Below are positions 40,290 through 53,685 of a DNA stretch of 64,000 nucleotides, in pieces. The stretch lies in contig CP147778.1 of NCBI GenBank assembly GCA_037305845.1, positions 3,104,001-3,168,000 on the forward strand, written 5' to 3'. A model generated the notes under the pieces. That model did no database searches, was not told the DNA's origin, and was given only the letters and a program-made list of their open reading frames with translations. How positions within the stretch are numbered: the first letter of the stretch is position 1; the number at the start of each line of letters is the position of its first letter. Position numbers and translations under genes: made by a program. Source of the stretch: Candidatus Freyarchaeum deiterrae (GTDB taxonomy: Archaea; Asgardarchaeota; Jordiarchaeia; Jordiarchaeales; Jordiarchaeaceae).

Positions 40290-40577
40290 TATGTACCTTT
40301 AAACGACTATTTTTTCCAGATTAAACTTAAATTTCGTACTACGACTTTTTAAAATAAAACCCTCTCAAGAAGAACTTGCGAAGGAAACTGTTTCCATCCA
40401 TCGTAGCAAGCTTACCCCCCCTCTCAGCAGGCTCTACGACACACATATACACCCCAAACAAGACCAAAAAGTGGTGGAAAAAAGGAAATGAACAGTAACC
40501 ATAAATGGGGCTCCAGCGGCGAGAAACGCACCATCACCTGGGAGTATGAACCATCGCCAGAACTCCTGCAGTACCTA
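40290..40577 (+). mobile_element. IS607-like relic: degraded tnpA 3' end plus first 30 codons of a putative tnpB
   Basis: Broken SQEEL...SIVAS...SRLY...KVVE resembles the C-terminus of IS607 serine recombinases. ATGA overlap at 40488, then MNSNHKWGSSGEKRTITWEYEPSPELLQYL in a GC-richer patch. Confidence 0.5.
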
Positions 40578-40591
40578 ATACAAAAAAGTCT

Positions 40592-40606
40592 TTCCAATTA
40601 ATTTAT
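40592..40606 (+). promoter_or_regulatory. Shared 15-bp promoter-like motif TTCCAATTAATTTAT, copy 1
   Basis: Identical to 43772-43786; about 45 nt upstream of the CDS; AT-rich TATA-like core. Confidence 0.5.
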
Positions 40607-40652
40607 TAATGACAATAACCAACTTATAGAAAAGTATTGAAAAAATACTTTT

Positions 40653-41840
40653 TTGGAGGGTTTTTCCTTGTTAGGCGATTTGAATATTGATAGAGTTAAT
40701 CAGCTAATAAGTAAAGTTAGTGATGTTTCAACCAGACTTCTTTCTGAAAGAGCAATTGTGGAATCAAAGCTGTTCAACGTGACTGCTTACAATGGTTTAG
40801 CTTGTTTCCAGCTTTACAACGGATACCAGTACAAGATAATGAAAGAACTAGCCAAGCACATCGACCCAGCCGAAATAGGGAGAAAATGCAAAACACTGGC
40901 AATGATACCAAACGCTCTGGGCATGTGGGCTTTTATAGGGCTGTACATGCTAGGGAGAATGCAAACACTCCACGATCTGGGAGGCCCTCAAAATGAACCA
41001 GAGGAGAGGAGAGAAGAGGGAAAATTCATACTCGATTTTTGGCAGAGAATGGCTAGCGCATACTATGACGGATTCCTATTCGCTGATGATAACGGTTTCA
41101 GGATCCCAGTATTGCCGGGTTCCATACTGAACATGGTTAAGGAAAATCTCGTGGAGCTAGATAAAGATAAGATTCCCAAATTGAAGAGAACCATGGCTCA
41201 GGTGCAATTGACGGAGTTCCTATACTACTGTGAGTGTAGGGCTTCCATACACGAGATGGGGCCTTACAAGATAAGTGATGACGAGATACTTCTGTTCAGA
41301 GAGTTCTCACCCCTATGGGATGGAACCAATCTTAAATTTGAATGGGGCAACTTGGAAGCAAAGTCTCCGCTACCGAATATCTCCATAGCTTTAACTCTCA
41401 AGGGAATAGACTCAGTTGATTTCACAGACTATGGAACGATGTTCGTCAAACCCGAAGATTACACCAACAACATCCGAAAAGTTGCAATGTTCACCCGAAG
41501 AGGCGACAAGATAGAACCCGTGGGATTGGATATACTTGAACCCTTAAACCAGTTTGCAACGGATGCCCAAACGGAGCTCTACCTCAAATTCGCGGAGTGG
41601 CCCGAGGACATGAAGGTTCTCTCGGGAGCAGAGGTTTTCGCGAAATACCTTTTCACTTTCACAGACATCGCAGGCATAACAAACAAATTCAAACTAGGCA
41701 TAAATGATGAAACCAAGAAAAAATGGTTCCCAAAAATAATGACTGAGTGGAAAATAATGCATCCTTCCTGGGCACGAATCTTCAGACCCAAAGAAGAATG
41801 GAAAGTAGATCCAACATTCTACTGGATGGTAGAGAAATGA
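40653..41840 (+). CDS. Unknown protein, paralog A of a pair flanking a phosphohistidine domain
   Basis: Shares ESKLF.VTAY, DFW.R.AS, CE.RA...GPYKIS, FRE, AQ.ELYL.F.EW with 44320-45477. Confidence 0.8.
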   Translation: MEGFSLLGDLNIDRVNQLISKVSDVSTRLLSERAIVESKLFNVTAYNGLACFQLYNGYQYKIMKELAKHIDPAEIGRKCKTLAMIPNALGMWAFIGLYMLGRMQTLHDLGGPQNEPEERREEGKFILDFWQRMASAYYDGFLFADDNGFRIPVLPGSILNMVKENLVELDKDKIPKLKRTMAQVQLTEFLYYCECRASIHEMGPYKISDDEILLFREFSPLWDGTNLKFEWGNLEAKSPLPNISIALTLKGIDSVDFTDYGTMFVKPEDYTNNIRKVAMFTRRGDKIEPVGLDILEPLNQFATDAQTELYLKFAEWPEDMKVLSGAEVFAKYLFTFTDIAGITNKFKLGINDETKKKWFPKIMTEWKIMHPSWARIFRPKEEWKVDPTFYWMVEK

Positions 41841-42739
41841 ACGCGGAGAGAACGGTAAAAGACTCAGAGGAGCACCCACACGACTACCCCTCAAGATTGG
41901 ACTGGAAGGAATCATGGTACTTTACCTACATGGATCCGAGAAGCAAGATCTGTGGAATATTCTACATATCCACGTACCCAAATAACGGAAGGACAGATTA
42001 CCTCACGACCTATCTGATAGACGGAAAAGTTGACGGATACATGAACACTACCGGAGTGAGCGGGAAACTGAGTGATATAACTGACGGAAAATTAAAATTT
42101 GAATTAGTGAAGCCCAATAAGAAATGGAATGTTTTCTTGGAAACCGAGAAGTTCAATATGGACTTCAAATTCAATGGAAGGTTTCCTCCATTTCGCTTTG
42201 ACCCCAATAAAGCCTACGTCAAGGATGTTCTTGAACAGGAGCATTACGAGCAGAGTTGCAAGGTTAATGGAACAATAAGATTCTCCGATGGAACCTCTCT
42301 TGAGGTTGATTGCTATGGTCACCGGGACCACTCTTGGGGCTTAAGAGACTACTCCAAAATAACAAAATGGGACTGGATGCAAGCCCAATTCGACGACTAC
42401 GCTATGAACATAATACGATTAACGATAGGCAAGAAAACCGAAATCAGCGGCTTCGTCTCAAACAAGAAAGGAAACATCGAAATAGTAGACACGAAAATCG
42501 AAACCCAGTACATGGAAGACCAGAAAACACCTCGGACGTCAACATACCTAGCGATAGATGAGAATGGGCGGTCGAAAACAATTCAATCCAAGAAGATTTA
42601 TGGGATAGTTTATCCGCCATGTCAGTCTAAGGAAGGAATCCGCACAGACATTTACGAAAACTTTTCCGAGTTTGCAGTCAAAGGAGAAAAAGGGAAGGGT
42701 TACGGGATTTCAGAATATCTGTTAACGGTAAAAGTCTAA
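41837..42739 (+). CDS. AttH/CrtC/tocopherol-cyclase-like beta-barrel protein
   Basis: WKESWYF, EHYEQ...G, GHRDHSWG.RD, WDW; ATG 41837 overlaps the upstream TGA. Confidence 0.65.
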   Translation: MNAERTVKDSEEHPHDYPSRLDWKESWYFTYMDPRSKICGIFYISTYPNNGRTDYLTTYLIDGKVDGYMNTTGVSGKLSDITDGKLKFELVKPNKKWNVFLETEKFNMDFKFNGRFPPFRFDPNKAYVKDVLEQEHYEQSCKVNGTIRFSDGTSLEVDCYGHRDHSWGLRDYSKITKWDWMQAQFDDYAMNIIRLTIGKKTEISGFVSNKKGNIEIVDTKIETQYMEDQKTPRTSTYLAIDENGRSKTIQSKKIYGIVYPPCQSKEGIRTDIYENFSEFAVKGEKGKGYGISEYLLTVKV

Positions 42740-42993
42740 ACTGAAGCGGATAAGGCTAAGCAGACAGCTTAAGGCCTCCACGAGTGGGAGCTACTACAAC
42801 TTGGACTTTGTTACCCGAAACGCCTAGAGGAAAAAATCGTAGTGTAGATAGGGATGTAAATTTTGTCAATCCCGAAAGGCACAATTCAATAAATCTGCTA
42901 TTGCAAGGATTAAGATAAATAATTTTTTAAACAAAATAGACATAAGCTTTAAATATAAGAAGCTCTCTATAAAATAGATAATAATCTCCCTTT

Positions 42994-43620
42994 GTGGAGG
43001 AAATGGAGGGAGAATCTCTGAAATCTTCTACTATTCTTATATTGGTCGGGTGGATTCTCGTAATAATCAGTCTCATTATTGTTTACATTAACTGGATGGG
43101 ACTACCAGCGGCAAATACTAATGTTACTATAGGAGGATACGGTTTTTGGATGACTACTTCTTTTGATTGGGTACCCTTTCTTATCATAGGTCTTGGTCCA
43201 CTTTCTTCTGCTAGCACAATGATATTGATATCTGTAATTATCTTAGTTGTTGCACTAATAATGCAATTAGTCGGCGTAATATGGGCTAGGCGAGAGGGAA
43301 CTGGAACTTCAGTCGCTCTTGTTTTGGTCGGCTGGTTTGTCGTTTTACTCAGTTTCATTTTGCTTCTCATTGGCTGGATAGAACTATTCATGGCGGTTAA
43401 TAATTTAAATCAGTTTTTTGTCTATAACACCACTGGTTGGATCTTGGCGGTCTTAGGTAATTTATCTGGTTTAGGCCTAGTGTTTACGGCTTTGATGGAC
43501 TTTTTCGCGGGTATTGGTGCAATTTCCACCGTTAGCACAATGATAATGATATCGACTATTATCTTAGTTGTTGCAGCAGTAATAGAATTAGCCGGCGTAA
43601 TATTGGCATTGCGAAAGTAA
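42994..43620 (+). CDS. Multi-pass membrane protein with internal duplication
   Basis: Two repeats: LVGW...STMILIS.IILVVA...L.GVI.A.R. Confidence 0.65.
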   Translation: MEEMEGESLKSSTILILVGWILVIISLIIVYINWMGLPAANTNVTIGGYGFWMTTSFDWVPFLIIGLGPLSSASTMILISVIILVVALIMQLVGVIWARREGTGTSVALVLVGWFVVLLSFILLLIGWIELFMAVNNLNQFFVYNTTGWILAVLGNLSGLGLVFTALMDFFAGIGAISTVSTMIMISTIILVVAAVIELAGVILALRK

Positions 43621-43771
43621 ATCAAAGGGCGGATTAATAGTAATTTGGAGCCCTAGTAAACCATCCAAAAATTTCCCCTCTTTTTTATTTTTAAACACTC
43701 TAGTTTTATTTTTAGGGTTAGTTATTTATTTTAAAAGTTCAGGAATTCTGGCATCTTGGCAAGTTTCAGTG

Positions 43772-43786
43772 TTCCAATTAATTTAT
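43772..43786 (+). promoter_or_regulatory. Shared 15-bp promoter-like motif, copy 2
   Basis: TTCCAATTAATTTAT, about 40 nt upstream of 43827. Confidence 0.5.
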
Positions 43787-43826
43787 AAGCAAATTATATA
43801 ATTTAAGTAAATAACATCAACGAGGA

Positions 43827-44192
43827 ATGAATATGTCGTATCGGAAAGTTGCTGACGGGCTCATAAGTTGTGAAAAAAATGTAGAGGGAGTACTCCGAGT
43901 AATAAATAGTGTTCAAGATGTAATAGCTCTTCTTAAATCGGGAGCGGAAGGGAAAATACCTATAGTACAGGACGCGGGAACCACAACCCTTGCGCCGGTG
44001 CTTTCACGTGTCCGCGGGGTTGTTTGCTTATCGGGTGGCGTGGGTTCCCATTTGGCGATAGTTACAAGAGAGTTCGGCATACCCGGGTTGATGGGTACAG
44101 TAATCCAGTACGACGGAGATCTGAACGGGAAAAAAGGGAAAATTGTAGCGTGCGGAGACGCTAAAGGTGAGCTGCACATTCTAGAAGATTAG
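43827..44192 (+). CDS. Stand-alone PEP-utilising enzyme mobile (phosphohistidine swivel) domain
   Basis: GVVC.SGG..SHLAIV.REFGIP signature with the catalytic His. Confidence 0.87.
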   Translation: MNMSYRKVADGLISCEKNVEGVLRVINSVQDVIALLKSGAEGKIPIVQDAGTTTLAPVLSRVRGVVCLSGGVGSHLAIVTREFGIPGLMGTVIQYDGDLNGKKGKIVACGDAKGELHILED

Positions 44193-44319
44193 CATTAAAA
44201 AGGGGAAATGCCCCTAACTGATTTTTTTAATTTATCCTTTTTTTAAGTAAAGACCAAACTTTTATATAACATATTTATGCACCGTTCTAATAATTTTAAT
44301 GAAATTCTAGGGGTGTCTA

Positions 44320-45477
44320 TTGATGAATATTAAAGAAGCTAATGAGCTTATTCCCCACCTTTCCGAGGTTATTGATTACCAGGTCACCCATAGGGGGCTT
44401 TTGGAATCGAAGCTATTCCCCGTCACCGCGTATATCTGTGTATCTTTTTATAACAGCTACGACATGCTATACGACGTATTGAAAATGGTATCAGAGAAGA
44501 CTACACCCGAAAAAATGGGTGAGGAAAGCAGAAAGATACTCTCGGAACTGCATGCGATGACGCTTTTTTACATACCATTGTATTATATGGTAGGCAGAAT
44601 GGGAGAGATTTTTGCCAACAAGGGAGACCCGAAAAGCGAGCTCAAAAAAAAGAGAAGGCAGACCGTGTTTATCCTCGACTTTTGGAAGAGGCTAGCATCC
44701 TCTTACTTCCCTGGCGGCAGGTTGACAGTGTATGACTCCAACGGAGAGAACCTAGCTCTAAATCAACCTGATGTAGATTGGGTTAAGGAACAAATCGTAG
44801 ACGTGACCCCGGAGGAAGCGACTAAAATCAAAAGGGTGGCGGCTAATTTGGACTTGTTTTCATTTCTCGATGAGTGCGAAGCCAGAGCAAAGCTCGGAGA
44901 ACACGGACCCTACAAAATAAGCAAAAACGAAACACTGATTTTCAGGGAAATATTGCACCTCTACGATGGTAGAAAACCGCACTTCCCCTGGTCGGCGACA
45001 GAAGCCAAAGCACCATACACGAACATCGCCTTCGCCTACAGGTTAAAAAATGTGGAAGCAAAATTCGACGACTTCTCAACCATGACCACAACGCCGGGCG
45101 ACTTCACAGAAAAAATAACCGGAATCGCCCTACTAAGAAGAGACCGAAAAAAAATAAAACCAGTAGACATGGACGAGTTGGAAGCATTCAACGACTACGC
45201 CGTGAAAGCCCAAGAAGAATTGTATTTGAGGTTCTCTGAATGGGATAAAAGGCAACGCCTAATCGCTGGAGCATTCGCATACTGCTACGGTTACGCCCGA
45301 TACACAAATTTTGTAGGAATCACGGATCAAATAAACTGGGATCTCACGGAAAGAACAATGAAAAAATACGTACCCTTCTTTACGGAGAACGATTTAGACC
45401 CCGGAATCCCCAGACTATTTAGAACCGAGGAAGAGAGAAAGAAAGACCCCTCGCTTTATCTAATATCCGAAGACTGA
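44320..45477 (+). CDS. Unknown protein, paralog B
   Basis: Paralog of 40653-41840 along its full length. Confidence 0.8.
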   Translation: MMNIKEANELIPHLSEVIDYQVTHRGLLESKLFPVTAYICVSFYNSYDMLYDVLKMVSEKTTPEKMGEESRKILSELHAMTLFYIPLYYMVGRMGEIFANKGDPKSELKKKRRQTVFILDFWKRLASSYFPGGRLTVYDSNGENLALNQPDVDWVKEQIVDVTPEEATKIKRVAANLDLFSFLDECEARAKLGEHGPYKISKNETLIFREILHLYDGRKPHFPWSATEAKAPYTNIAFAYRLKNVEAKFDDFSTMTTTPGDFTEKITGIALLRRDRKKIKPVDMDELEAFNDYAVKAQEELYLRFSEWDKRQRLIAGAFAYCYGYARYTNFVGITDQINWDLTERTMKKYVPFFTENDLDPGIPRLFRTEEERKKDPSLYLISED

Positions 45478-45574
45478 ACAAAACCAAGCCAAACAAGTAA
45501 CAATAATAAAAACAGATTAAAAGAATAGAATCAACTAGCAAGAATATTTTTGGTAGGGGCTGCTTTCTACTCTT

Positions 45575-47188
45575 TTATTTTCTTTGTTCAATTTTTGATT
45601 CGACTTTTTTAGCTTTTACTTTTCCTTTTCCTATGTCTGCCCATTTCCACGTTATTGTGTGGTCATCCTTAGTGCATTCCAGTAGTCCCTCGTTAATAAG
45701 TTGGGTTAAGCCCCATTCCACCCACTCTCTTGAGAGGGCATCCGATACTGCCTTAATGGAATATATTTCGTCCGCGAGGAGTTTCTTTGGATCTTCTCCG
45801 TTGTTTTCAAGTTTCCCATGTCTCTCAATGCGGTCGTTTTTCAGGAGTCTCCAAGCTAGGGTGCGTCTTTTCCTGAGGAGGTAATCTTCCTTCGCCTCCG
45901 GTGTGTTCAGTGTTCCTTCCTCAACCTCTTTTTGTTGGTCTCTTATGAGTCCTTCTAGGTTGTAGTTGAAATCATTTACCGTCTTGTTCAGAAGTTCTTT
46001 GGGAACCTCATCGCTTTCTGTCACAGCTTGGTTTGCGTCGTATCTGAGCCAATTGCTGTGAAGTATTCTTAATCCGAACTCTTTGGCTCTCTCCCTCACT
46101 TCTGTTCCTGGGAATGGTGAAAGAATGTGGAAGCCGTGGGCGGTGTCCAACTCATTGCCGAATTCCATTGATTCCTTCATGGTTTGGGGTGTTTCGCCAG
46201 GCAGTCCCATTATAAATGAGGCGAGAACCTTTACTCCTGAATCTTTCGCTATCTTAACTCCTTTCCTCAACTTTTCCCTAGTTTGCCTCTTCCTCGCTAG
46301 CTCGAGTATTCTATCATCCCCGCTCTCCGCGCCGTAGCAGAAATAGTAGCACCCAGCCTCACTCATTCTTTTCACGAGATCCGGGGTAACGGTATCGCAT
46401 CTAGAGAATGCACACCATTTAATCTTTAACCCTCTATTCAGTATCTCATCACAAATCGCGTAGACGTGTTTGTGATTCATAGTTAACTGGTCATCTTCTA
46501 CACATATGTCATCGAATCCCTGACCCATAATTACTTCCATCTCATCAACAACGAGTTTCGGGTCTCGGTAACGGGCTTTTGCGCCAACCATTTTGTGCCC
46601 AACGCAGAATATACAGTGGTAAGGGCATCCACGAGCGGTAATCATGCTGGCTCCCACCTTGTAGGCGTGATATTTCGCCAGCGGTAAAAGGTGACGCGCC
46701 GGAAATGGAAGTTCGTCTAAATTCTGTATAAGCGGCCTATCCGGATTAACAACTATTTTCCCATCTTCCCTGTAGGTAATCCCCAGAATATCTTTAAGGT
46801 CTTTACCCTCAACCAAGTCTAACAAAGTGTATTCTCCTTCCCTCCTTACGATAACGTCAATGTAAGGGGCCTCGTTCAAACACTCCTCATCCCAAAAAGT
46901 GACGTGGCACCCGCCCATAACGGTCATGGCACCCATTTCGTTGCAGACCTTCAACGCCCGCAATGCGGTGGGATAATTCATGGTTACGGGTCCAGCTCCA
47001 CAGACGTCTGGTTTAAATTCCTGAATCTTCTCCTTAATCCTTTGCGGGGAAAATTTTGAAACAACCATATCCAAAATTTCAACTTCGTGACCCTTCTCTT
47101 CAAGAACAGCAGCAAGATAACATAATCCAAGGGGTAGGGTTGGGCATTCCGCGAAAGGATAGGGCGCATTTATCAACAGAGTTCTCAT
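45575..47188 (-). CDS. B12-binding radical SAM protein (class B-like), paralog 1
   Basis: PLGL.YLAA B12 domain; RGCPYHCIFC; GAESG; P.PGT. Confidence 0.92.
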   Translation of the reverse strand: MRTLLINAPYPFAECPTLPLGLCYLAAVLEEKGHEVEILDMVVSKFSPQRIKEKIQEFKPDVCGAGPVTMNYPTALRALKVCNEMGAMTVMGGCHVTFWDEECLNEAPYIDVIVRREGEYTLLDLVEGKDLKDILGITYREDGKIVVNPDRPLIQNLDELPFPARHLLPLAKYHAYKVGASMITARGCPYHCIFCVGHKMVGAKARYRDPKLVVDEMEVIMGQGFDDICVEDDQLTMNHKHVYAICDEILNRGLKIKWCAFSRCDTVTPDLVKRMSEAGCYYFCYGAESGDDRILELARKRQTREKLRKGVKIAKDSGVKVLASFIMGLPGETPQTMKESMEFGNELDTAHGFHILSPFPGTEVRERAKEFGLRILHSNWLRYDANQAVTESDEVPKELLNKTVNDFNYNLEGLIRDQQKEVEEGTLNTPEAKEDYLLRKRRTLAWRLLKNDRIERHGKLENNGEDPKKLLADEIYSIKAVSDALSREWVEWGLTQLINEGLLECTKDDHTITWKWADIGKGKVKAKKVESKIEQRK

Positions 47189-47330
47189 TAACGATTTACC
47201 TCGTTCTTTTTGTGATTCAAATTGTTTATCGCAAACACATAGTTAAATATACTTAAAGTTTACGTTTTTATAAAATTTAGCTCGCAAAAGGTTAGACTCG
47301 TGGAGCAAAGAGTGAAATAGTTGTTAGCTA

Positions 47331-48929
47331 CTACGCGTTTCGTAAGATTTCTGCTTGGCGATTTTTTCTGCTTGCATTGTTCCAGAACCATGTTATCGAG
47401 CTGTCATCTTTAGTGTAATTGAAAATGCCTTCTTCGAGCATTTTCCTTAATTCTTCAGCAATTCGATCTTTTGTCATGAAGGTTGAAATAGGTTTAAGTT
47501 TGTGTATCTCTTCTGCGAGAAGTTCAACAGGATCCCCATTTTCTGTAAACTTGCCGTGCCTCTCTATGTAATCTCTCTTCAAAAGATGCCAGGTGAATAC
47601 TCTTCTCTCCCTGAGCTCTATTAAGTCTCTATCTTCTTTGCTGAGTTTTCCCTGCTTTTTTCGTTCTTCTTCACTTTTCGTTATTGTTTCTATTAATGTG
47701 CCATAAAACTCCTTGGCGACCTTGTTTATGTACTCGGCGCTTGCGCCCTCTGTTTCCGTAATGGCTTGATTGGCATCATACCGATACCAGTCGCTGTGAA
47801 GAATCTTTATCCCAAGCTCCTCCGCTTTCTCCCTGATCTCTGTGCCGGGGTAGGGGGTAAGTATGTGGAAACCGTACCAATTTCCCAGGGACTTTCCAAA
47901 CTCAAGAGACTCCTTAACCGTTTCTTCTGTCTCTCCTGGAAGTCCTAGTATCATTGAGGAGAGTGTTGTTAGTCCCACCTCGTTTGAGAGAGTTATACCC
48001 TTCCTTATTTTCTCAATCGTTAGTCTCTTCTTTGCCAAGTCCAGTATACCCTGGTTTCCGCTCTCAACGCCGTATAGAATGAATATGCAGCCGGCTTCTT
48101 TCATTTTGCTCAAAAGTTCCTTTGTAACAGTGTCTACTCTTGCAAAAGCTGTCCACTGAACCTTAATTCCTCTATTGATTATCTCGTCGCAGAATTCGAA
48201 AATCCTCTTGATTTTAAATGTGAGAAGATCATCCACAACGTTAACTAGGTCGAAGCCGTAATCGAAGACTATTTCTTCAAGCTCGTCAACACACAGTTTT
48301 ATGTCTCTGAACCTCGGCTTCCTGCCAACCATTCTGCCTCCGACACAAAAGGTGCAGTTGTAGGGGCATCCTCGCCCGGTCATCATGGCACAGCCAGTTT
48401 TGTAGGCTCTGTACTTGGACAGGGGGAGTAGGTGCTTCGCTGGGAAGGGAAGTTCGTCCAAGTTCTCTATAAACGCTCTAGGAGGGTTCTTTACGATTTG
48501 TCCGTCTTCCCTGTAAGTTATACCGTCGACATCTTTTAGGTCTCTACCTTTAACAATATCCAGTAAAGTGTATTCGCCTTCCCCTCGGGCTACGATATCC
48601 AGATAGGGTGCTTCCTGCAGAGCTTCCTTATCGTAGAAGCTGACGTGGCATCCTCCCATAATTGTGGTGGCTCCGAACTTCTTGCAGACTTCCATGGCAC
48701 GAAGGGCGGTCGGATAATTTATGGTAATGGGGCCTGTGCCAGCGATATCGGGTTTAAACTCTTTCATCTTATCCGCAATTTTTTTAATAGAAAATCTTGA
48801 AACCAGAAGGTCGAGAATCTGAACTTCAAAGCCCTCTCTCTCAAGTACACCTGCTATGTAACAGAGCCCTAGGGGAGGTGTAGGTCCCTCATTGAAGGGG
48901 TATGGAACATTTACAAAGAGTACTTTCAT
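47331..48929 (-). CDS. B12-binding radical SAM protein, paralog 2
   Basis: RGCPYNCTFC; probable start ATG 48929 (ORF open to 48989). Confidence 0.92.
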   Translation of the reverse strand: MKVLFVNVPYPFNEGPTPPLGLCYIAGVLEREGFEVQILDLLVSRFSIKKIADKMKEFKPDIAGTGPITINYPTALRAMEVCKKFGATTIMGGCHVSFYDKEALQEAPYLDIVARGEGEYTLLDIVKGRDLKDVDGITYREDGQIVKNPPRAFIENLDELPFPAKHLLPLSKYRAYKTGCAMMTGRGCPYNCTFCVGGRMVGRKPRFRDIKLCVDELEEIVFDYGFDLVNVVDDLLTFKIKRIFEFCDEIINRGIKVQWTAFARVDTVTKELLSKMKEAGCIFILYGVESGNQGILDLAKKRLTIEKIRKGITLSNEVGLTTLSSMILGLPGETEETVKESLEFGKSLGNWYGFHILTPYPGTEIREKAEELGIKILHSDWYRYDANQAITETEGASAEYINKVAKEFYGTLIETITKSEEERKKQGKLSKEDRDLIELRERRVFTWHLLKRDYIERHGKFTENGDPVELLAEEIHKLKPISTFMTKDRIAEELRKMLEEGIFNYTKDDSSITWFWNNASRKNRQAEILRNA

Positions 48930-49062
48930 GCACACACTCACCAGATGCCTTGGGAACAATACATAGGAACTCAAGTTGCTTAATAGCATATTACGGCGCT
49001 TTTTAGAAATAAAATGCTTTTCCTATTTAAGCATTATTCTAATTTTATTTTATAGAGGTTAG

Positions 49063-50682
49063 CTATTGTGGGTTTCGTAGGGTTTCCATTTGATTCTTCT
49101 CTCGCTTACCTATGTCAGTCCAGAACCAAATCACCGAGTTCTCATCCCGGGTGTAGCTGAGAAAACCTTCCTCAACCATTTTCTTTATTTCCTCAGCGAC
49201 CCGATCCTTCTTTACAATGGATGAAATAGCCTTGAGGGTGTAAAGCTTTTCTGCGAGAAGCTCTTCTGGGTTCCCTTTTTCTGTGAATCTGCCATATCTT
49301 TCTATGTAATCGTGTTTCAGTATCTGCCAGACGAACCTTCTCGTTCTTTTAAGTTTTATTTCCTCGAAGTCCTTCTTTGTAAACACATCCTCTTTGAGTT
49401 CTTCTCCTCTGTCCATAGCTGCTTCTATCTTGTCCGTAGCATCTTCAAGTGATTTATAAAATGCCTTTGACGCCTCGCTTATGTACCTGGCGCTCGCTCC
49501 CTCCGTTTCTGAAACAGCATGGTTCGCATCGTACTTTAGCCAGTCGTTGTCGAGAATTTTTAACCCGAGCTCCTCCGCTCTTTCCCTGACCTCGGTACCC
49601 GGGTAAGGCGAAAGGATGTGGAAGCCGTACATGTTTCCAAGAGACTTTCCAAGCTCAAAAGACTCCCTAATCGTTTCCTCCGTCTCTCCTGGAAGGCCTA
49701 GTATAAATGATGAGACGGTTGGTATTCCCACCTCATTTGAGAGGGCTACGCCTTTCCTTATTTTGTCCAAGTTTGTTCTTTTTCTTGCCAATTCTAGTAT
49801 TTTTTGGTTTGCGCTTTCAACACCATATAAAATGAAAAAGCATCCAGTTTCTTTCATTCTGGTTAAAAGTTCCTTTGTCGTGGTGTCTACTCTGGAGAAG
49901 GCACTCCACTCGATGTGAAGCCCTCTGTTATCAAGTTCGTCGCAGAACTCGAAAACTCTTTTGTGATTAATTGTTAAAAGGTCGTCCACAATGTTGACTC
50001 TGTGGAAGCCGTATCTGTAAACTATTTCTTCAATCTCGTCAACACATCGTTTTATGTCCCTGAACCTGGGCTTTTTGCCAACCATTTTGCCTCCGACACA
50101 AAAGGTGCAGTTGAAGGGGCATCCTCGTCCAGTCATCATGTCACAGCCGGATTTGAAGGCTTGGTACTTCGACAGGGGGATAAGATGCCAAGCGGGCCAG
50201 GGAATTTCATCCAGATTCTCGATGAGTTTTCTTGGAGGATTCTTTATGATTTCCCCATTCTCCCTGTAGGTTATACCTTCAACATCTTTCAGGTCTCTGC
50301 CTCTTAAAATGTCTGAGAAAGTGTTTTCGCCTTCACCTCGGACCACGATATCCAAGTAGGGTGCTTCCAGCAAGGCTTCCCTGTCGGCAAAGGTGACATG
50401 GGGGCCTCCCATAACCGTGGTAGCCCCGAATTTTTTGCAAACTTCAATACAACGGAGGGCTGTGGGGTAACTTATGGTAACGGGACCTGCGCCTACGATG
50501 TCTGGTTTGAATTCTTTCATCTTGTCAGAAACCTTCTTGAGGGAAAATCTTGAAATGAGAAGGTCGAGAATCTGAACTTCAGCTCCTTCCTTTTCAGCTA
50601 CAGCTGCAATGTAGCAGATTCCTAATGGAACAGTGGGACACTCGGTATACGGGTAAGGAACATTCAGTAGGAGTACTTTCAC
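49063..50682 (-). CDS. B12-binding radical SAM protein, paralog 3
   Basis: RGCPFNCTFC; probable start GTG 50682 with GGTGA SD. Confidence 0.92.
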   Translation of the reverse strand: MKVLLLNVPYPYTECPTVPLGICYIAAVAEKEGAEVQILDLLISRFSLKKVSDKMKEFKPDIVGAGPVTISYPTALRCIEVCKKFGATTVMGGPHVTFADREALLEAPYLDIVVRGEGENTFSDILRGRDLKDVEGITYRENGEIIKNPPRKLIENLDEIPWPAWHLIPLSKYQAFKSGCDMMTGRGCPFNCTFCVGGKMVGKKPRFRDIKRCVDEIEEIVYRYGFHRVNIVDDLLTINHKRVFEFCDELDNRGLHIEWSAFSRVDTTTKELLTRMKETGCFFILYGVESANQKILELARKRTNLDKIRKGVALSNEVGIPTVSSFILGLPGETEETIRESFELGKSLGNMYGFHILSPYPGTEVRERAEELGLKILDNDWLKYDANHAVSETEGASARYISEASKAFYKSLEDATDKIEAAMDRGEELKEDVFTKKDFEEIKLKRTRRFVWQILKHDYIERYGRFTEKGNPEELLAEKLYTLKAISSIVKKDRVAEEIKKMVEEGFLSYTRDENSVIWFWTDIGKREKNQMETLRNPQ

Positions 50683-50810
50683 ACAATCACCATCAAAACA
50701 GTTCAAACAAGACTGAGATAAGAAACAGCTCCACGCTAATATAACTATAACGTGTAATCTGAAGAAAGATAAACTTTCCTATCGAACCGTTTCTAGAAAT
50801 GTGTATATTT

Positions 50811-51989
50811 TTATACAGCGTTTCCATTCGGAGCGTTGGCCGGCTCAGTCCAACCCGCTCTGGCGACATCAGGCTTGTCACCAGCGTACAGGTATTCCTT
50901 CTTCAGCGTCGGCCAAGAGGCGTCCGCACTCACGGTAAACGGGAAGCCGCACAGACGCAGACCCCCACGGAGAATCGCCAGACTGGCGAGCCTGTCCCGG
51001 TGGTAGTCCACGCCACAGGTTTCGCATCTGCTTATCCCCCACGCTGGGTGCTCAAGGTTTCCACCGCAGACGGGACATCGGGAGGAAGTCCCCCGTGGGT
51101 TCACGTAAAGAGTCCGGTGAGAAGACTTGTAATCCACCAGCCGCTGATACAAGCGGTAGGGCCAGCGATTAAGCTGGGTTCGAAACTTCTTGCTCTTGTT
51201 AGCCTCTCTTCGCCCGTTGTTCCTGATGCCTGTGAGGTTTTCGAAAATGAAGATGGTGTCCTGGTTTTCGCGCACTGTTTTTGTGGTCAGCTTGTGAAGC
51301 GCGTCTACCACGCGGTGTCGCTGCCGATTTCTGGTTTCCTTGAGTTTTCGCGCTCGTTTCTGGGGATTCGGGATGTGGCTTTGCAGTCGGCGTCTTCTCC
51401 GCGAAAAATCGTTTTGGATCCGGGTGATTCTGCGCAGCGGCTCTGTGGATGCTGCTTCAAGATGAACGGTGCCTTGGGAGTCTTTTACGGCAGCTGTGGA
51501 GTCTATGGTGGAGAAGTTGAGGTCGGAAGCCGCAAACCGGGTGCTGAGGGGCTTGTTTCCGGAGCCGATTATAAAGGTGAGGCAGACTTTCCGCTCGGTG
51601 AGCAGTACCTCGGAGACTCGTCCGTGATCATAGTCTTTGTATTTTTTGTGGTTGGTGTTTATGGGTATCCAGACGTAGCTGAAGGGCTGCAGGGTGATGC
51701 GGAGCTGACCTTCGACCAGTTTGAAGAGTTCCGCGTCGATGCGTGCGGCTAACTTTTTCACTGCGGGGATGCGGAGCTGTCCTTCGTGGTGGTTTTTGCG
51801 GTACGATTTGAGCAGAGCTACCGCCGATTTGCAGACCGGGTTTATGTGGTGGCGGGCGTACGGGTAACGTGAATAGAACCAGTCTTTGATCATGCGCCGC
51901 AGTTCTATGGGGTGGGGTATTTTGTGTTGTTTGTTTCGGGTTGCTATTAGGTATGCGGCCTGTAACGCGTAGCGCAACGCTTCCTGCAT
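50811..51989 (-). mobile_element. tnpB: TnpB RNA-guided endonuclease (IS200/IS605 or IS607 family), apparently 5'-truncated
   Basis: RuvC SDLN, FENL, HRD; Zn finger CPVC/CETC; VNPRGTSS; GC-richer than flanks; in-frame TAA two codons before the ATG. Confidence 0.9.
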
Positions 51990-52086
51990 ATCCTTTTACC
52001 TTTCAAGTCAATGAATGGTTTTATTATAGAATTGACTCGAATAATCTGGATAAGACTTAAGTACTGCGTTTAAAGGTTGTAGAAAT

Positions 52087-53685
52087 ATGTCAGCCAGAAC
52101 TCTCCTCATAAATACACCGTATCCTTTCTCCGAGTGCCCTACAATTCCACTAGGGCTTAATTATCTAGCCGCAGTTCTTGAGGATAGAGAATTCGAAGTG
52201 GACATACTGGATATGGTGGTCTACAAGTTTTCCAGAGAAAAGATTATCGACAAAATTAGGGAGTATAAGCCGGACATCGTGGGAGCCGGTTCAGTTACCA
52301 TGAATTATCCTCATGCTAAAAGTATACTCCAAATCGCAAAGGGAGAGGGAGCTACAACAATTATTGGTGGTCCACACGCCACATTTGCGGATAAACTGGT
52401 TCTAACTGAAGCTCCGTGGATAGATATCATAGTGAGGAGAGAGGCGGAATACACACTTCTAGACATTGTTAAGGGTAGGGAGCTCAAGGATATTAGGGGT
52501 ATAACCTATAGAGAGGACGGGGAGATAATTAGAAATTCCGATAGAGAATTGTTAATGAATTTGGATGAGCTGCCTTTTCCAGCCAGACATCTGGTTCCCT
52601 TATCCAAATACCTTGCCTATAAAACCGGTTGCAGCATGGTTACGGGCAGGGGGTGCCCCAACAGGTGTATTTTCTGTGTAGGCCCCAAAATGACTAGTAC
52701 CAAGATGAGGTTCCGCGACCCTAAACTTTGCGTGGATGAGATGGAAGAGGTTCTGGATTATGGTTTCGAGGAAATAATTGTAGAAGATGACACTTTCACC
52801 GTCAATAAGAAACACGTTTTCGCAATCTGCGACGAGATTATGAGCCGAGGACTAAAGTTCAAGTGGAGTGCCAATGCACGAGTCAACACCGTGACCAAAG
52901 AGATAATTGAGAAAATGTACGAAGCGGGATGCATATTCATACAATACGGTGTAGAGAGCGGAAACCCTGAGATTCTGAAAACTTGCAAAAAGGGAATAAC
53001 CCTAGATCAGGTGCGCGAAGCGGTGAAAATCGCGAAAGAGGTGGGCATAGGAGTTCTATGCTCCTTCATAATAGGATTACCGGGAGAAACCAAAGAAACC
53101 ATAAAGGAAACAATGGACTTCGCGCAGAGTCTGGGAACCTACTACGGTTACCATGTCCTCGCACCATTCCCGGGAACAGAGGTCAGAGAACGGGCAGACG
53201 AATTGGGAATAAAAATCCTCACGGACAACTGGATGAGATACGATGCCAACAGATCGGTAACTGAAACAGGGGGAGCCTCAGCAGAGTACGTGAACAAAAT
53301 CGTAAGGGACTTTTACAAGGGTGTAACGGAATACGTGAAAAACCAGGTTAAAGCAGAAAAGGCTGGAAAAGCAAGCGAAGCAGACCTGAAAGACGTAGCA
53401 ATCAGGAGAAGACGAGCCCTAGCCTGGCACCTCCTAAAGAACGACCTGATAGAGAACTATGGCAAATTCAAGGACTCGGGAAAAACCCCCATACAAAAAC
53501 TTGCGGACAACCTCTACACTTTTAGGGGAATAGAAAACAATTTCACTAAAGAATACATTCAGAGCGAGATCAGCGAAATGGTTAAGCAAAACTTGCTTAC
53601 TAACACGAATAGTAAAGGGGAAATTATATGGGAATGGAAAATGCCGGAAAAGCCCGGAAGATTAAGCGTTGTCAAAAAAGTGTAA
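52087..53685 (+). CDS. B12-binding radical SAM protein, paralog 4
   Basis: RGCPNRCIFC; shares C-terminal RRxLAWxLLKND with paralog 1. Confidence 0.92.
   Translation: MSARTLLINTPYPFSECPTIPLGLNYLAAVLEDREFEVDILDMVVYKFSREKIIDKIREYKPDIVGAGSVTMNYPHAKSILQIAKGEGATTIIGGPHATFADKLVLTEAPWIDIIVRREAEYTLLDIVKGRELKDIRGITYREDGEIIRNSDRELLMNLDELPFPARHLVPLSKYLAYKTGCSMVTGRGCPNRCIFCVGPKMTSTKMRFRDPKLCVDEMEEVLDYGFEEIIVEDDTFTVNKKHVFAICDEIMSRGLKFKWSANARVNTVTKEIIEKMYEAGCIFIQYGVESGNPEILKTCKKGITLDQVREAVKIAKEVGIGVLCSFIIGLPGETKETIKETMDFAQSLGTYYGYHVLAPFPGTEVRERADELGIKILTDNWMRYDANRSVTETGGASAEYVNKIVRDFYKGVTEYVKNQVKAEKAGKASEADLKDVAIRRRRALAWHLLKNDLIENYGKFKDSGKTPIQKLADNLYTFRGIENNFTKEYIQSEISEMVKQNLLTNTNSKGEIIWEWKMPEKPGRLSVVKKV

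What the first reader, a model, noticed from the sequence alone, without database searches (positions are those of the whole stretch)
40592..45477. Split phosphohistidine system: two paralogous unknown proteins + free swivel domain + AttH-like protein
Established: in PPDK, PEP synthase, rifampin phosphotransferase and phenylphosphate synthase, a His swivel domain shuttles phosphate between an ATP-grasp domain and an acceptor domain. Here the swivel domain is a free 121 aa protein between two ~390 aa paralogs with conserved polar motifs (ESKLF.VTAY, CE.RA..(H/G)E.GPY, FRE), and no ATP-grasp gene is in the window. Inference: a new phosphotransferase or phosphate-mediated dehydratase/isomerase in which the paralogs serve as donor and acceptor sites, acting on a lipid-like substrate handled by the translationally coupled AttH/CrtC-like protein.
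Basis: partly seen in the sequence, partly recalled or inferred. Interest (0 to 1): 0.8.

Follow-up and report, generated by a model that had tools for sequence, protein, structure and literature searches.

The report
Split phospho-histidine kinase with phosphate lyase
An Asgard archaeon carries a free phosphate-carrying "swivel" protein, two old copies of an undescribed partner protein with no known fold, and a relative of the 25-phosphosteroid lyase; together they most likely remove an unreactive hydroxyl group by phosphorylating it and then expelling the phosphate, but this genus lacks the ATP-binding protein that related archaea encode beside the swivel.

Summary
Two 36%-identical ~390 aa paralogs ("Par") flank a DUF7065/DUF7064 barrel protein and a free 121 aa PEP-utiliser swivel domain with its catalytic His.

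- The barrel protein's closest solved relative is 25-phosphosteroid lyase (Foldseek E 2e-16, TM 0.77). That enzyme eliminates phosphate from a tertiary phosphoester.
- Par immediately followed by the lyase-like gene recurs in 38 of 43 other Asgard loci.
- In 14 of 15 sampled loci that have a swivel, a free 330 aa PPDK_N ATP-grasp protein follows it.
- Natural swivel–Par fusions exist in Actinobacteria.
- The system is therefore best read as a split dikinase (ATP-grasp, swivel, Par as acceptor subunit) feeding a phospho-lyase. The net reaction would be an ATP-driven dehydration.

The "paralogs are donor and acceptor" idea is not supported. parA and parB belong to two old lineages. Each co-evolves with its own lyase, and each works alone elsewhere.

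This genus has no dedicated ATP-grasp, so its phosphate donor is unknown. Par has no Pfam or NCBIfam family, and a pLDDT 94 model has no structural match in the PDB. The substrate is unknown.

The scan reached the same reading earlier on other Asgard genomes.

The parts
40653..41840 (+). parA: 395 aa member of an unnamed family (clade A), the proposed acceptor/substrate subunit of the split phosphotransferase
   Evidence: ORF. No Pfam, NCBIfam or PDB sequence hit. AF2 pLDDT 93.8 with no fold match: Foldseek found nothing at E<=0.001, and the best VIA Z was 4.8. Orthologs are 81-85% identical within the genus and 51-54% in another family.
41837..42739 (+). DUF7065/DUF7064 beta-barrel protein, a 25-phosphosteroid-lyase homolog. 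Its ATG overlaps the parA stop (ATGA), so the two are translationally coupled
   Evidence: Pfam DUF7065 2.9e-15 and DUF7064 7e-6. PDB 25-PSL hit at E 1.6e-5 with the single sequence and 3.7e-8 with a profile, sharing G-x-RD-x-SWG-x-R. AF2 pLDDT 91.2, with 9g4c/9fzn as top Foldseek hits at E 2.4e-16 and TM 0.77. Overlap seen.
42994..43620 (+). 208 aa membrane ORF with an internal duplication. It is an insertion specific to this genome and not part of the conserved module
   Evidence: Absent in genus relatives, where the barrel gene and swivel are about 120 bp apart. Single copy in the genome. No Pfam hit.
43827..44192 (+). Free phospho-histidine swivel domain (PEP-utilizers mobile domain), His75
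   Evidence: PF00391 at 34.4 bits, above the cut-off. Aligns to the PEPS, Enzyme I and RPH swivels with the His in register. His and the G-S-H-x-A-I-V-x-R-E motif are invariant in 16 orthologs.
44320..45477 (+). parB: 385 aa paralog (clade B), 65-72% identical to single-copy Par proteins of other Asgard families
   Evidence: Its co-evolving lyase partner is unlinked, at genome position 3,275,860-3,276,792.
45575..50706 (-). Three B12-binding radical SAM paralogs. They are neighbours at genus level; a functional link is unproven
   Evidence: Pfam B12-binding plus Radical_SAM. Orthologs flank the module in genus relatives. B12-rSAM genes were seen near only 2 of 20 loci from other families.
50811..51989 (-). 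TnpB (IS605 OrfB / Cas12f-like) at the far end of a segment that is inverted relative to genus relatives
   Evidence: Pfam hits. Gene order compared with G117.
52087..53685 (+). Fourth B12-binding radical SAM paralog. In genus relatives it is transcribed divergently from parA

Best explanation
The locus encodes parts of a split dikinase-type phosphotransferase coupled to a phosphate-eliminating lyase.

Proposed mechanism in the full system, as found in other Asgard archaea:
1. A free PPDK_N ATP-grasp protein loads the His of the free swivel protein from ATP.
2. The swivel carries the phosphate to Par. Par is an undescribed ~390 aa protein that binds the acceptor and places the phosphate on a hydroxyl, probably a tertiary or otherwise unreactive one on a hydrophobic or isoprenoid molecule.
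3. The translationally coupled DUF7065/DUF7064 barrel, a homolog of 25-phosphosteroid lyase, expels the phosphate to give an alkene.
4. The net reaction is an ATP-driven dehydration.

This genome holds two such Par/lyase pairs of different ancient lineages: A (parA plus the coupled lyase) and B (parB plus a lyase 127 kb away). They share one swivel and probably act on two substrates or positions. The dedicated ATP-grasp gene is missing in this genus, so the donor that charges the swivel here is unknown.

Shown: homologies, gene linkage, fusions and co-evolution. Inferred: the direction of phosphate flow, Par as the acceptor site, and the nature of the substrate.
For: 1. The barrel protein is a homolog of 25-PSL. 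Profile E 3.7e-8 with a shared RD-x-SWG-x-R motif. 25-PSL is the top Foldseek hit at E 2.4e-16 and TM 0.77, ahead of AttH, kievitone hydratase and pericyclases. 25-PSL eliminates phosphate from a kinase-made tertiary phosphoester (PMC8449060; PDB titles).

2. Par immediately followed by the barrel gene occurs in 38 of 43 distinct Asgard loci. In the window they overlap as ATGA.

3. The swivel is present in 15 of 20 extended loci. A free 325-335 aa PPDK_N protein (PF01326, E 4e-82) lies right after it in 14.

4. Orthologs of that ATP-grasp occur in at least 61 of 400 Asgard genomes. Nearly all lie within 6 kb of a Par gene on the same contig.

5. Natural fusions exist. Swivel–Par proteins of 516-575 aa, and 772-794 aa forms with a further C-terminal region, occur in Gordonia, Citricoccus and metagenomes.

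6. Fifteen actinobacterial loci were found, most with two or three swivel–Par genes and about ten with a detectable DUF7065 match. Near the Pseudonocardia and Nocardia loci examined lies an ATP-grasp gene, shown in Pseudonocardia to be an ATP-grasp–swivel protein.

7. The Par and lyase trees are congruent in their major clades, so the two proteins co-evolve.

8. DUF7065 genes also sit next to APH-type kinase genes in Nocardia. This is the same kinase class as 25-HSK, so kinase plus lyase is a recurrent pairing.

9. The swivel His is invariant, and all ORFs are intact at 75-85% identity within the genus.
Against: - No ATP-grasp gene accompanies the module in this genome or its genus, so the proposed relay is incomplete here.
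- Par has no detectable nucleotide- or substrate-binding signature and no structural relative. Its assignment as the acceptor site rests on analogy with RPH and PpsA and on gene context only.
- I do not know the catalytic residues of 25-PSL, because the structure paper is not in the library. Lyase activity is therefore inferred from family membership.
- The score against the NCBIfam Rv3169 model is below its cut-off (76.7 against 150 bits).
- No substrate is identified. The link to B12-rSAM genes holds mainly within one genus.
Confidence: 0.5

Rival explanations
1. Par is the phosphate-donor module. It binds PEP, another phosphodonor or a nucleotide and charges the swivel, and the swivel then phosphorylates the substrate held in the barrel protein. 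Under this reading the ATP-grasp of relatives is an alternative or additional donor, and the genus in hand manages with Par alone.
For: The genus lacks any dedicated ATP-grasp, yet keeps an intact swivel with its invariant His and two Par genes. Par has three to four invariant Arg residues and an invariant R-x5-6-GPY motif, which would suit binding an anionic phosphodonor.
Against: In most Asgard loci, and near the actinobacterial clusters examined, a canonical ATP-grasp is encoded beside the swivel and Par. That leaves Par in the position of the third, acceptor domain of dikinases. Par has no nucleotide-binding loops and no similarity to PEP-binding barrels.
Confidence: 0.15
2. The pathway runs the other way round or ends at the phosphoester. 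The barrel protein acts as a CrtC/kievitone-type hydratase (or an isomerase or cyclase), and the swivel system phosphorylates the resulting alcohol. This pulls an unfavourable hydration forward or makes a phosphorylated product.
For: The same fold includes AttH, kievitone hydratase and pericyclases. Tertiary phosphoesters have a very high group-transfer potential, so the steps are near-reversible (PMC8449060).
Against: 25-PSL is clearly the closest solved relative, with E 1e-16 against 1e-10 for the hydratases, and shares sequence motifs. No Pfam model other than DUF7065/DUF7064 reached E 0.01. Gene order puts Par before the barrel gene, with coupling.
Confidence: 0.15
3. One reading: the two paralogs of this locus are the donor and acceptor sites of a single enzyme, bridged by the swivel.
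For: The swivel lies between two paralogs and no ATP-grasp is present. The actinobacterial clusters also carry several Par copies.
Against: Most Par-positive Asgard genomes have one Par with swivel and lyase. parA and parB are deep paralogs, each with its own co-evolving lyase. Each clade occurs alone with ATP-grasp and swivel elsewhere. The actinobacterial copies each carry their own swivel, and an ATP-grasp gene lies nearby.
Confidence: 0.05
4. In this genus the module is a decaying or idle remnant. The ATP-grasp is lost and the B-type lyase displaced, so there is no working phosphotransfer.
For: The ATP-grasp is absent. The B-type lyase is unlinked. The locus has suffered an IS-associated inversion and an inserted membrane ORF.
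Against: All four genes are intact in six genomes of the genus at 75-85% amino-acid identity, with the His and family-invariant residues kept. The same genome has a second swivel protein without an ATP-grasp, which hints at a shared unknown donor rather than decay.
Confidence: 0.1

Closest known systems
25-hydroxysteroid kinase (25-HSK) plus 25-phosphosteroid lyase (25-PSL) of Sterolibacterium denitrificans
   Same: The logic is the same: a kinase step followed by a phosphate-eliminating lyase, giving an ATP-dependent dehydration of an unreactive (tertiary) alcohol. The lyase component is homologous (PMC8449060).
   Different: The kinase there is a single 40 kDa APH-type phosphotransferase working through a ternary complex. 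Here the kinase function would be a multi-protein phospho-His relay with an unrelated acceptor protein. The Sterolibacterium genes are unlinked, whereas here Par and the lyase are translationally coupled. The substrate here is unknown, in an archaeon not known to make or degrade steroids.
Rifampin phosphotransferase (RPH) and PigC/RedH-type enzymes (ATP-grasp, substrate domain and C-terminal swivel in one chain)
   Same: A three-part dikinase design that puts phosphate on a hydroxyl of a hydrophobic molecule through a swivelling His. The free ATP-grasp of Asgard relatives scores E 5e-72 against the RPH model, and the swivel matches the RPH/PigC swivels.
   Different: Here the three parts are separate proteins. 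The middle part (Par) shows no sequence or fold similarity to the RPH substrate domain. The phosphate is expected to be removed again by a lyase. The ATP-grasp is absent in this genome.
Phenylphosphate synthase PpsABC (from my own knowledge: a split system with a separate ATP-binding subunit and a His-carrying subunit)
   Same: A precedent for a dikinase-type phosphotransferase split into separate subunits that phosphorylates a hydroxyl. The swivel's best NCBIfam hits are PRK08296-type proteins, about 600 aa with a C-terminal swivel.
   Different: In PpsA the swivel is fused to the acceptor part, whereas here it is free. Par matches none of the NCBIfam models, PRK08296 included, at E<=1. There is no lyase step in that pathway.
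AttH / CrtC / kievitone hydratase barrels
   Same: Same overall beta-barrel fold (Foldseek E 1e-10, TM 0.63-0.72).
   Different: 25-PSL is a much closer match. No Pfam model other than DUF7065/DUF7064 reached E 0.01.

Membership tests
PEP-utilizers mobile (swivel) domain, PF00391 | Match above Pfam gathering score | tested here: met
   34.4 bits against a cut-off of 23.1. The whole-genome scan also rings.
PEP-utilizers mobile (swivel) domain, PF00391 | Catalytic His in the G-G-x-x-S-H-x-A-I-x-x-R-E-x-G-I-P context | tested here: met
   GGVGSHLAIVTREFGIP aligns with the His of the PEPS and Enzyme I swivels. The His is invariant in 16 orthologs.
His-swivel dikinases (PEPS/PPDK/RPH type) | PPDK_N ATP-grasp domain that charges the His | tested here: not met
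   None in the window. The only PF01326 match in the closed genome is in PEP synthase, 1.5 Mb away, and the same holds in the genus. The feature is met in relatives: a free ATP-grasp lies beside the swivel in 14 of 20 loci.
His-swivel dikinases (PEPS/PPDK/RPH type) | Third domain homologous to the PEP/pyruvate TIM barrel or to the RPH substrate domain | tested here: inconclusive
   Par has no sequence match to either. No fold match reached Z>=5 or Foldseek E<=0.001. A missing fold match does not prove that the folds differ.
DUF7065/DUF7064 (Pfam) | Both domains above gathering score | tested here: met
   57.2 against 27 bits, and 26.8 against 24.7 bits.
25-phosphosteroid lyase family | Sequence and fold homology to solved 25-PSL | tested here: met
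   phmmer E 1.6e-5 and profile E 3.7e-8. Top Foldseek hits are 9g4c, 9fzn and 9g2i at E 2.4e-16 and TM 0.76-0.78 over about 335 columns.
25-phosphosteroid lyase family | Catalytic and phosphate-binding residues of 25-PSL conserved | not testable with these tools
   The paper describing the 25-PSL structure is not in the library. Only the shared RD-x-SWG-x-R and G-x-G-x-x-E motifs can be noted.
NCBIfam Rv3169 family (NF053593) | Score above the curated cut-off | tested here: not met
   76.7 bits against a cut-off of 150. It is related, but not a member of that subfamily.
AttH / CrtC hydratase families | Match to the family's own sequence model | tested here: not met
   DUF7065 and DUF7064 were the only Pfam models that reached E 0.01. 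There is fold-level similarity only (2ich at E 1e-10).

The most novel reading that the evidence does not exclude
Par defines a new-fold acceptor subunit of a fourth, fully split branch of His-swivel dikinases. This branch is dedicated to ATP-driven dehydration of tertiary alcohols in isoprenoid lipids. In this genus it would work on archaeal membrane-lipid intermediates together with the flanking B12 radical SAM enzymes. It would also run without any ATP-grasp, so the swivel would be charged by a so far unknown donor, possibly one shared with the genome's second swivel protein that also lacks an ATP-grasp.
Probability: 0.15. Interest if true: 0.85.

Novelty: new variant of a known kind. Interest (0 to 1): 0.62.

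Why it matters
ATP-dependent dehydration by phosphorylation and elimination is so far known from one bacterial steroid pathway, with a simple APH-type kinase. Here the homologous lyase is wired to a different, multi-protein phospho-His kinase. The acceptor subunit of that kinase belongs to an unnamed family with no known fold.

The family is present in about a quarter of the sampled Asgard genomes (113 of 400, 29 of 85 genera) and, in fused form, in Actinobacteria.

A dikinase spends two phosphoanhydride bonds. That would make phosphorylation of a tertiary alcohol irreversible. The ADP-forming 25-HSK is fully reversible (PMC8449060), so this is a testable rationale for the design.

Identifying the substrate could reveal an unknown step of lipid or isoprenoid metabolism in the archaeal relatives of eukaryotes. 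The ATP-grasp-free state of this genus raises the question of how a free swivel domain is charged.

Tried and rejected
- **Par sequence searches.** Par against Pfam, NCBIfam and PDB sequences, singly and as a profile, gave nothing.
- **Par fold searches.** Foldseek against the PDB and VIA-align against 48,161 chains gave nothing above noise, with a best Z of 4.8. The ESM Atlas gave no useful lead.
- **Par against the genome's RPH-like protein.** hhalign probability was 0.15%.
- **Extra C-terminal regions of the long bacterial Par proteins.** hhalign against the lyase profile found no similarity, so these are not Par–lyase fusions.
- **Longer fused forms.** A search for forms above 798 aa found none; this is weak evidence.
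- **The search for related loci with two alignments.** Both failed because no stretch was conserved enough. A single Gordonia protein worked.
- **Second DUF7065 gene.** I looked for an ATP-grasp, kinase or Fe-S partner near it (L057). It sits beside ABC-2 transporter genes.
- **The 289 aa Fe-S protein.** It follows B-type lyases elsewhere. In this genome its homologs are only distant and unlinked.
- **Literature.** Searches for DUF7065, Rv3169 and 25-PSL found no description of this system.

Full report
**What is in the window**

On the + strand lie five genes.
- parA, 40653-41840 (395 aa).
- A DUF7065/DUF7064 protein.
- A 208 aa membrane ORF, 42994-43620.
- A 121 aa free PEP-utiliser swivel domain, 43827-44192.
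- parB, 44320-45477 (385 aa).

parA and parB are 36% identical over their full length, E 3e-83. The barrel gene's likely ATG at 41837 overlaps the parA stop as ATGA. That start gives a 300 aa product, like its orthologs.

The swivel passes the Pfam threshold and carries the catalytic His in the usual G-S-H-x-A-I-V-x-R-E context. That His is invariant in 16 orthologs.

The window belongs to a closed 3.58 Mb Asgard genome. Named homologs come from Thor-, Hermod- and Helarchaeota MAGs. Jordarchaeum; I did not check that.

**The barrel protein**

A plain sequence search of the PDB hits 25-phosphosteroid lyase (9fzn, 9g2i, 9g4c) at E 1.6e-5. A profile of 25 Asgard orthologs hits it at E 3.7e-8, with a shared G-x-RD-x-SWG-x-R motif.

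An AF2 model (pLDDT 91.2) has 25-PSL as its five best Foldseek matches, at E 2.4e-16 and TM 0.76-0.78. AttH, kievitone hydratase and fungal pericyclases follow at about 1e-10.

[quoted passage not shown] A kinase makes a tertiary phosphoester, and the lyase eliminates phosphate to give the alkene (PMC8449060; PMC11061730). "AttH/CrtC-like" is therefore right at fold level, but the closest characterised relative is a phosphate lyase.

**Par**

Par has no Pfam, NCBIfam or PDB sequence match, singly or as a profile.

A confident AF2 model (pLDDT 93.8, pTM 0.92) shows three parts:
- a helical N-terminal half;
- a seven-stranded sheet;
- C-terminal helices.

Foldseek finds nothing in the PDB. VIA-align against 48,161 chains reaches only Z 4.8.

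The family is real and broad. It is present in 113 of 400 Asgard genomes and 29 of 85 genera. A profile search of 1.8 billion representatives finds 390 clusters at E<=1e-3. Invariant residues include several Arg and an R-x5-6-GPY motif.

**Gene context elsewhere**

This evidence decides the interpretation.
- In 43 distinct Asgard loci, Par is immediately followed by the lyase-like gene in 38. Three of the five exceptions are cut by a contig end.
- Among 20 loci fetched with 18 kb of context, 15 have the free swivel. In 14 of those a free 325-335 aa protein follows the swivel. It is a full PPDK_N ATP-grasp (PF01326, E 4e-82), and it is equally close to the PEPS and RPH ATP-grasps.
- A phylum-wide search finds orthologs of this ATP-grasp in at least 61 genomes. 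Nearly all lie on the same contig within 6 kb of Par (compare).

The standard module is therefore ATP-grasp, swivel, Par and lyase. This is the three-part design of dikinases such as rifampin phosphotransferase, but fully split, with Par in the place of the acceptor domain and followed by a phosphate lyase.

**Fusions and bacterial clusters**

Rosetta-stone fusions confirm the Par–swivel link. Swivel–Par proteins exist of 516-575 aa (Gordonia otitidis, annotated "PEP-utilizing enzyme"). Forms of 772-794 aa with a further C-terminal region also exist, in Citricoccus.

A scan with the Gordonia protein found 15 actinobacterial loci. Most carry two or three swivel–Par genes, and about ten show a detectable match to the Asgard lyase-like protein.

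In the loci whose conserved neighbours I annotated (Nocardia, Pseudonocardia), these also include:
- a DUF7065 gene;
- a LuxR regulator;
- an acyl-CoA synthetase;
- an ATP-grasp gene a few kb away, shown in Pseudonocardia to be an ATP-grasp–swivel protein of the truncated-PPDK type beside biotin carboxylase genes.

In Nocardia higoensis, two of six DUF7065 genes sit beside APH-type kinase genes. That is the kinase class of 25-HSK. The lyase family therefore pairs with two unrelated kinds of kinase, which supports reading the swivel system as the kinase.

**Why the "donor and acceptor paralogs" idea fails**

Most genomes have a single Par.

In maximum-likelihood trees, parA and parB fall in two deep, fully supported clades. 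The lyase tree shows the same clades.

The lyase coupled to parA is of the A type. A second DUF7065 gene in this genome, 127 kb away, groups with the B-type lyases. Those are the partners of parB's closest orthologs, which are 72% identical.

The window thus holds two parallel Par/lyase systems that share one swivel. It is not one enzyme with two halves.

**What is odd here**

Neither this genome nor the other five of its genus has a dedicated ATP-grasp. The only PPDK_N is in PEP synthase.

All four genes are nevertheless intact and 75-85% identical across the genus. The genome has a second swivel protein, a 727 aa RPH/RedH-like protein, that also lacks an ATP-grasp. How the swivel is charged in this lineage is open.

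Within the genus the module is flanked on both sides by B12-binding radical SAM paralogs. In the window the stretch from parA to the third rSAM gene is inverted relative to a relative, with a tnpB at one end. Outside the genus the rSAM link is weak, seen at 2 of 20 loci.

**Mechanism and confidence**

I put 0.5 on the split-dikinase-plus-lyase dehydration model. The main rivals are:
- Par as donor module, 0.15;
- a hydratase or phosphoester-end-product direction, 0.15;
- an idle remnant in this genus, 0.10;

One inference is worth testing. PMC8449060 shows that an ADP-forming kinase is fully reversible on a tertiary alcohol (Keq 0.34). A dikinase that spends two anhydride bonds would make that step irreversible.

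**Novelty**

I found no paper describing this system. It combines two known kinds, the swivel dikinase and the kinase/lyase dehydration, with a new protein family. I rate it a new variant of a known kind.

Follow-ups of this scan on other Asgard genomes reached the same reading. I saw them only after my own analysis.

Noticed in passing
L058:106-2121:- and L058:2137-2553:- (G000:C1, about 1,659,600-1,662,100): PEP synthase is split into a 138 aa N-terminal ORF and a 671 aa ORF, at position ~114 of the PPDK_N domain. In this genome the two are separated by an in-frame TAA. The same split point recurs in most genomes of the order searched, there in two frames.
   Followed up: partly
L104:6394-8577:- (G000:C1, about 3,399,400-3,401,600): A 727 aa RPH/RedH/PigC-like protein has the substrate-domain end and a C-terminal swivel but no ATP-grasp. 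It lies next to an AlkZ-like gene. It is a second swivel system in this genome without a dedicated ATP-binding partner.
   Followed up: partly
window 42994-43620: A 208 aa membrane ORF made of two similar halves. It has its own AT-rich upstream region and is inserted between the lyase-like gene and the swivel. It is absent from genus relatives and single-copy in the genome.
   Followed up: partly
window 40290-51995, compared with L100 (G117:C389): The stretch from parA to the third B12-rSAM gene is inverted relative to a same-genus genome. A tnpB (50811-51989) lies at one end and a short ORF (40488-40601) at the other. This agrees with the earlier notes on an IS-mediated inversion.
   Followed up: partly
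L041:6138-7007:-, L041:5851-6129:-; L042:10416-11264:+, L042:11265-11540:+: In B-type loci of three Asgard families, the Par–lyase pair is followed by a 282-289 aa protein with a C-terminal 2x[4Fe-4S] domain and a 91-92 aa ferredoxin. This could be a redox step after the lyase. These genes are not linked to the module in this genome.
   Followed up: partly
L035:10406-10852:+ (and the matching ORF in L036): In A-type loci of family f14, a 148 aa dual-specificity/PTP-type phosphatase gene directly follows the lyase-like gene.
   Followed up: no
L096 (Pseudonocardia oceani), L073 (Nocardia higoensis): The actinobacterial cluster has three swivel–Par fusions, a DUF7065 gene, a LuxR regulator, an acyl-CoA synthetase and an unknown 323 aa protein. 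In Pseudonocardia it continues with a truncated PPDK (ATP-grasp plus swivel, PRK05878 type) and biotin carboxylase plus carboxyltransferase genes. It looks like a catabolic gene cluster.
   Followed up: partly
G401:C8:21012-22306 and G401:C116:50191-52214 (Nocardia higoensis): DUF7065 genes lie directly beside APH-type kinase genes. This is the 25-HSK/25-PSL pairing as linked genes.
   Followed up: no
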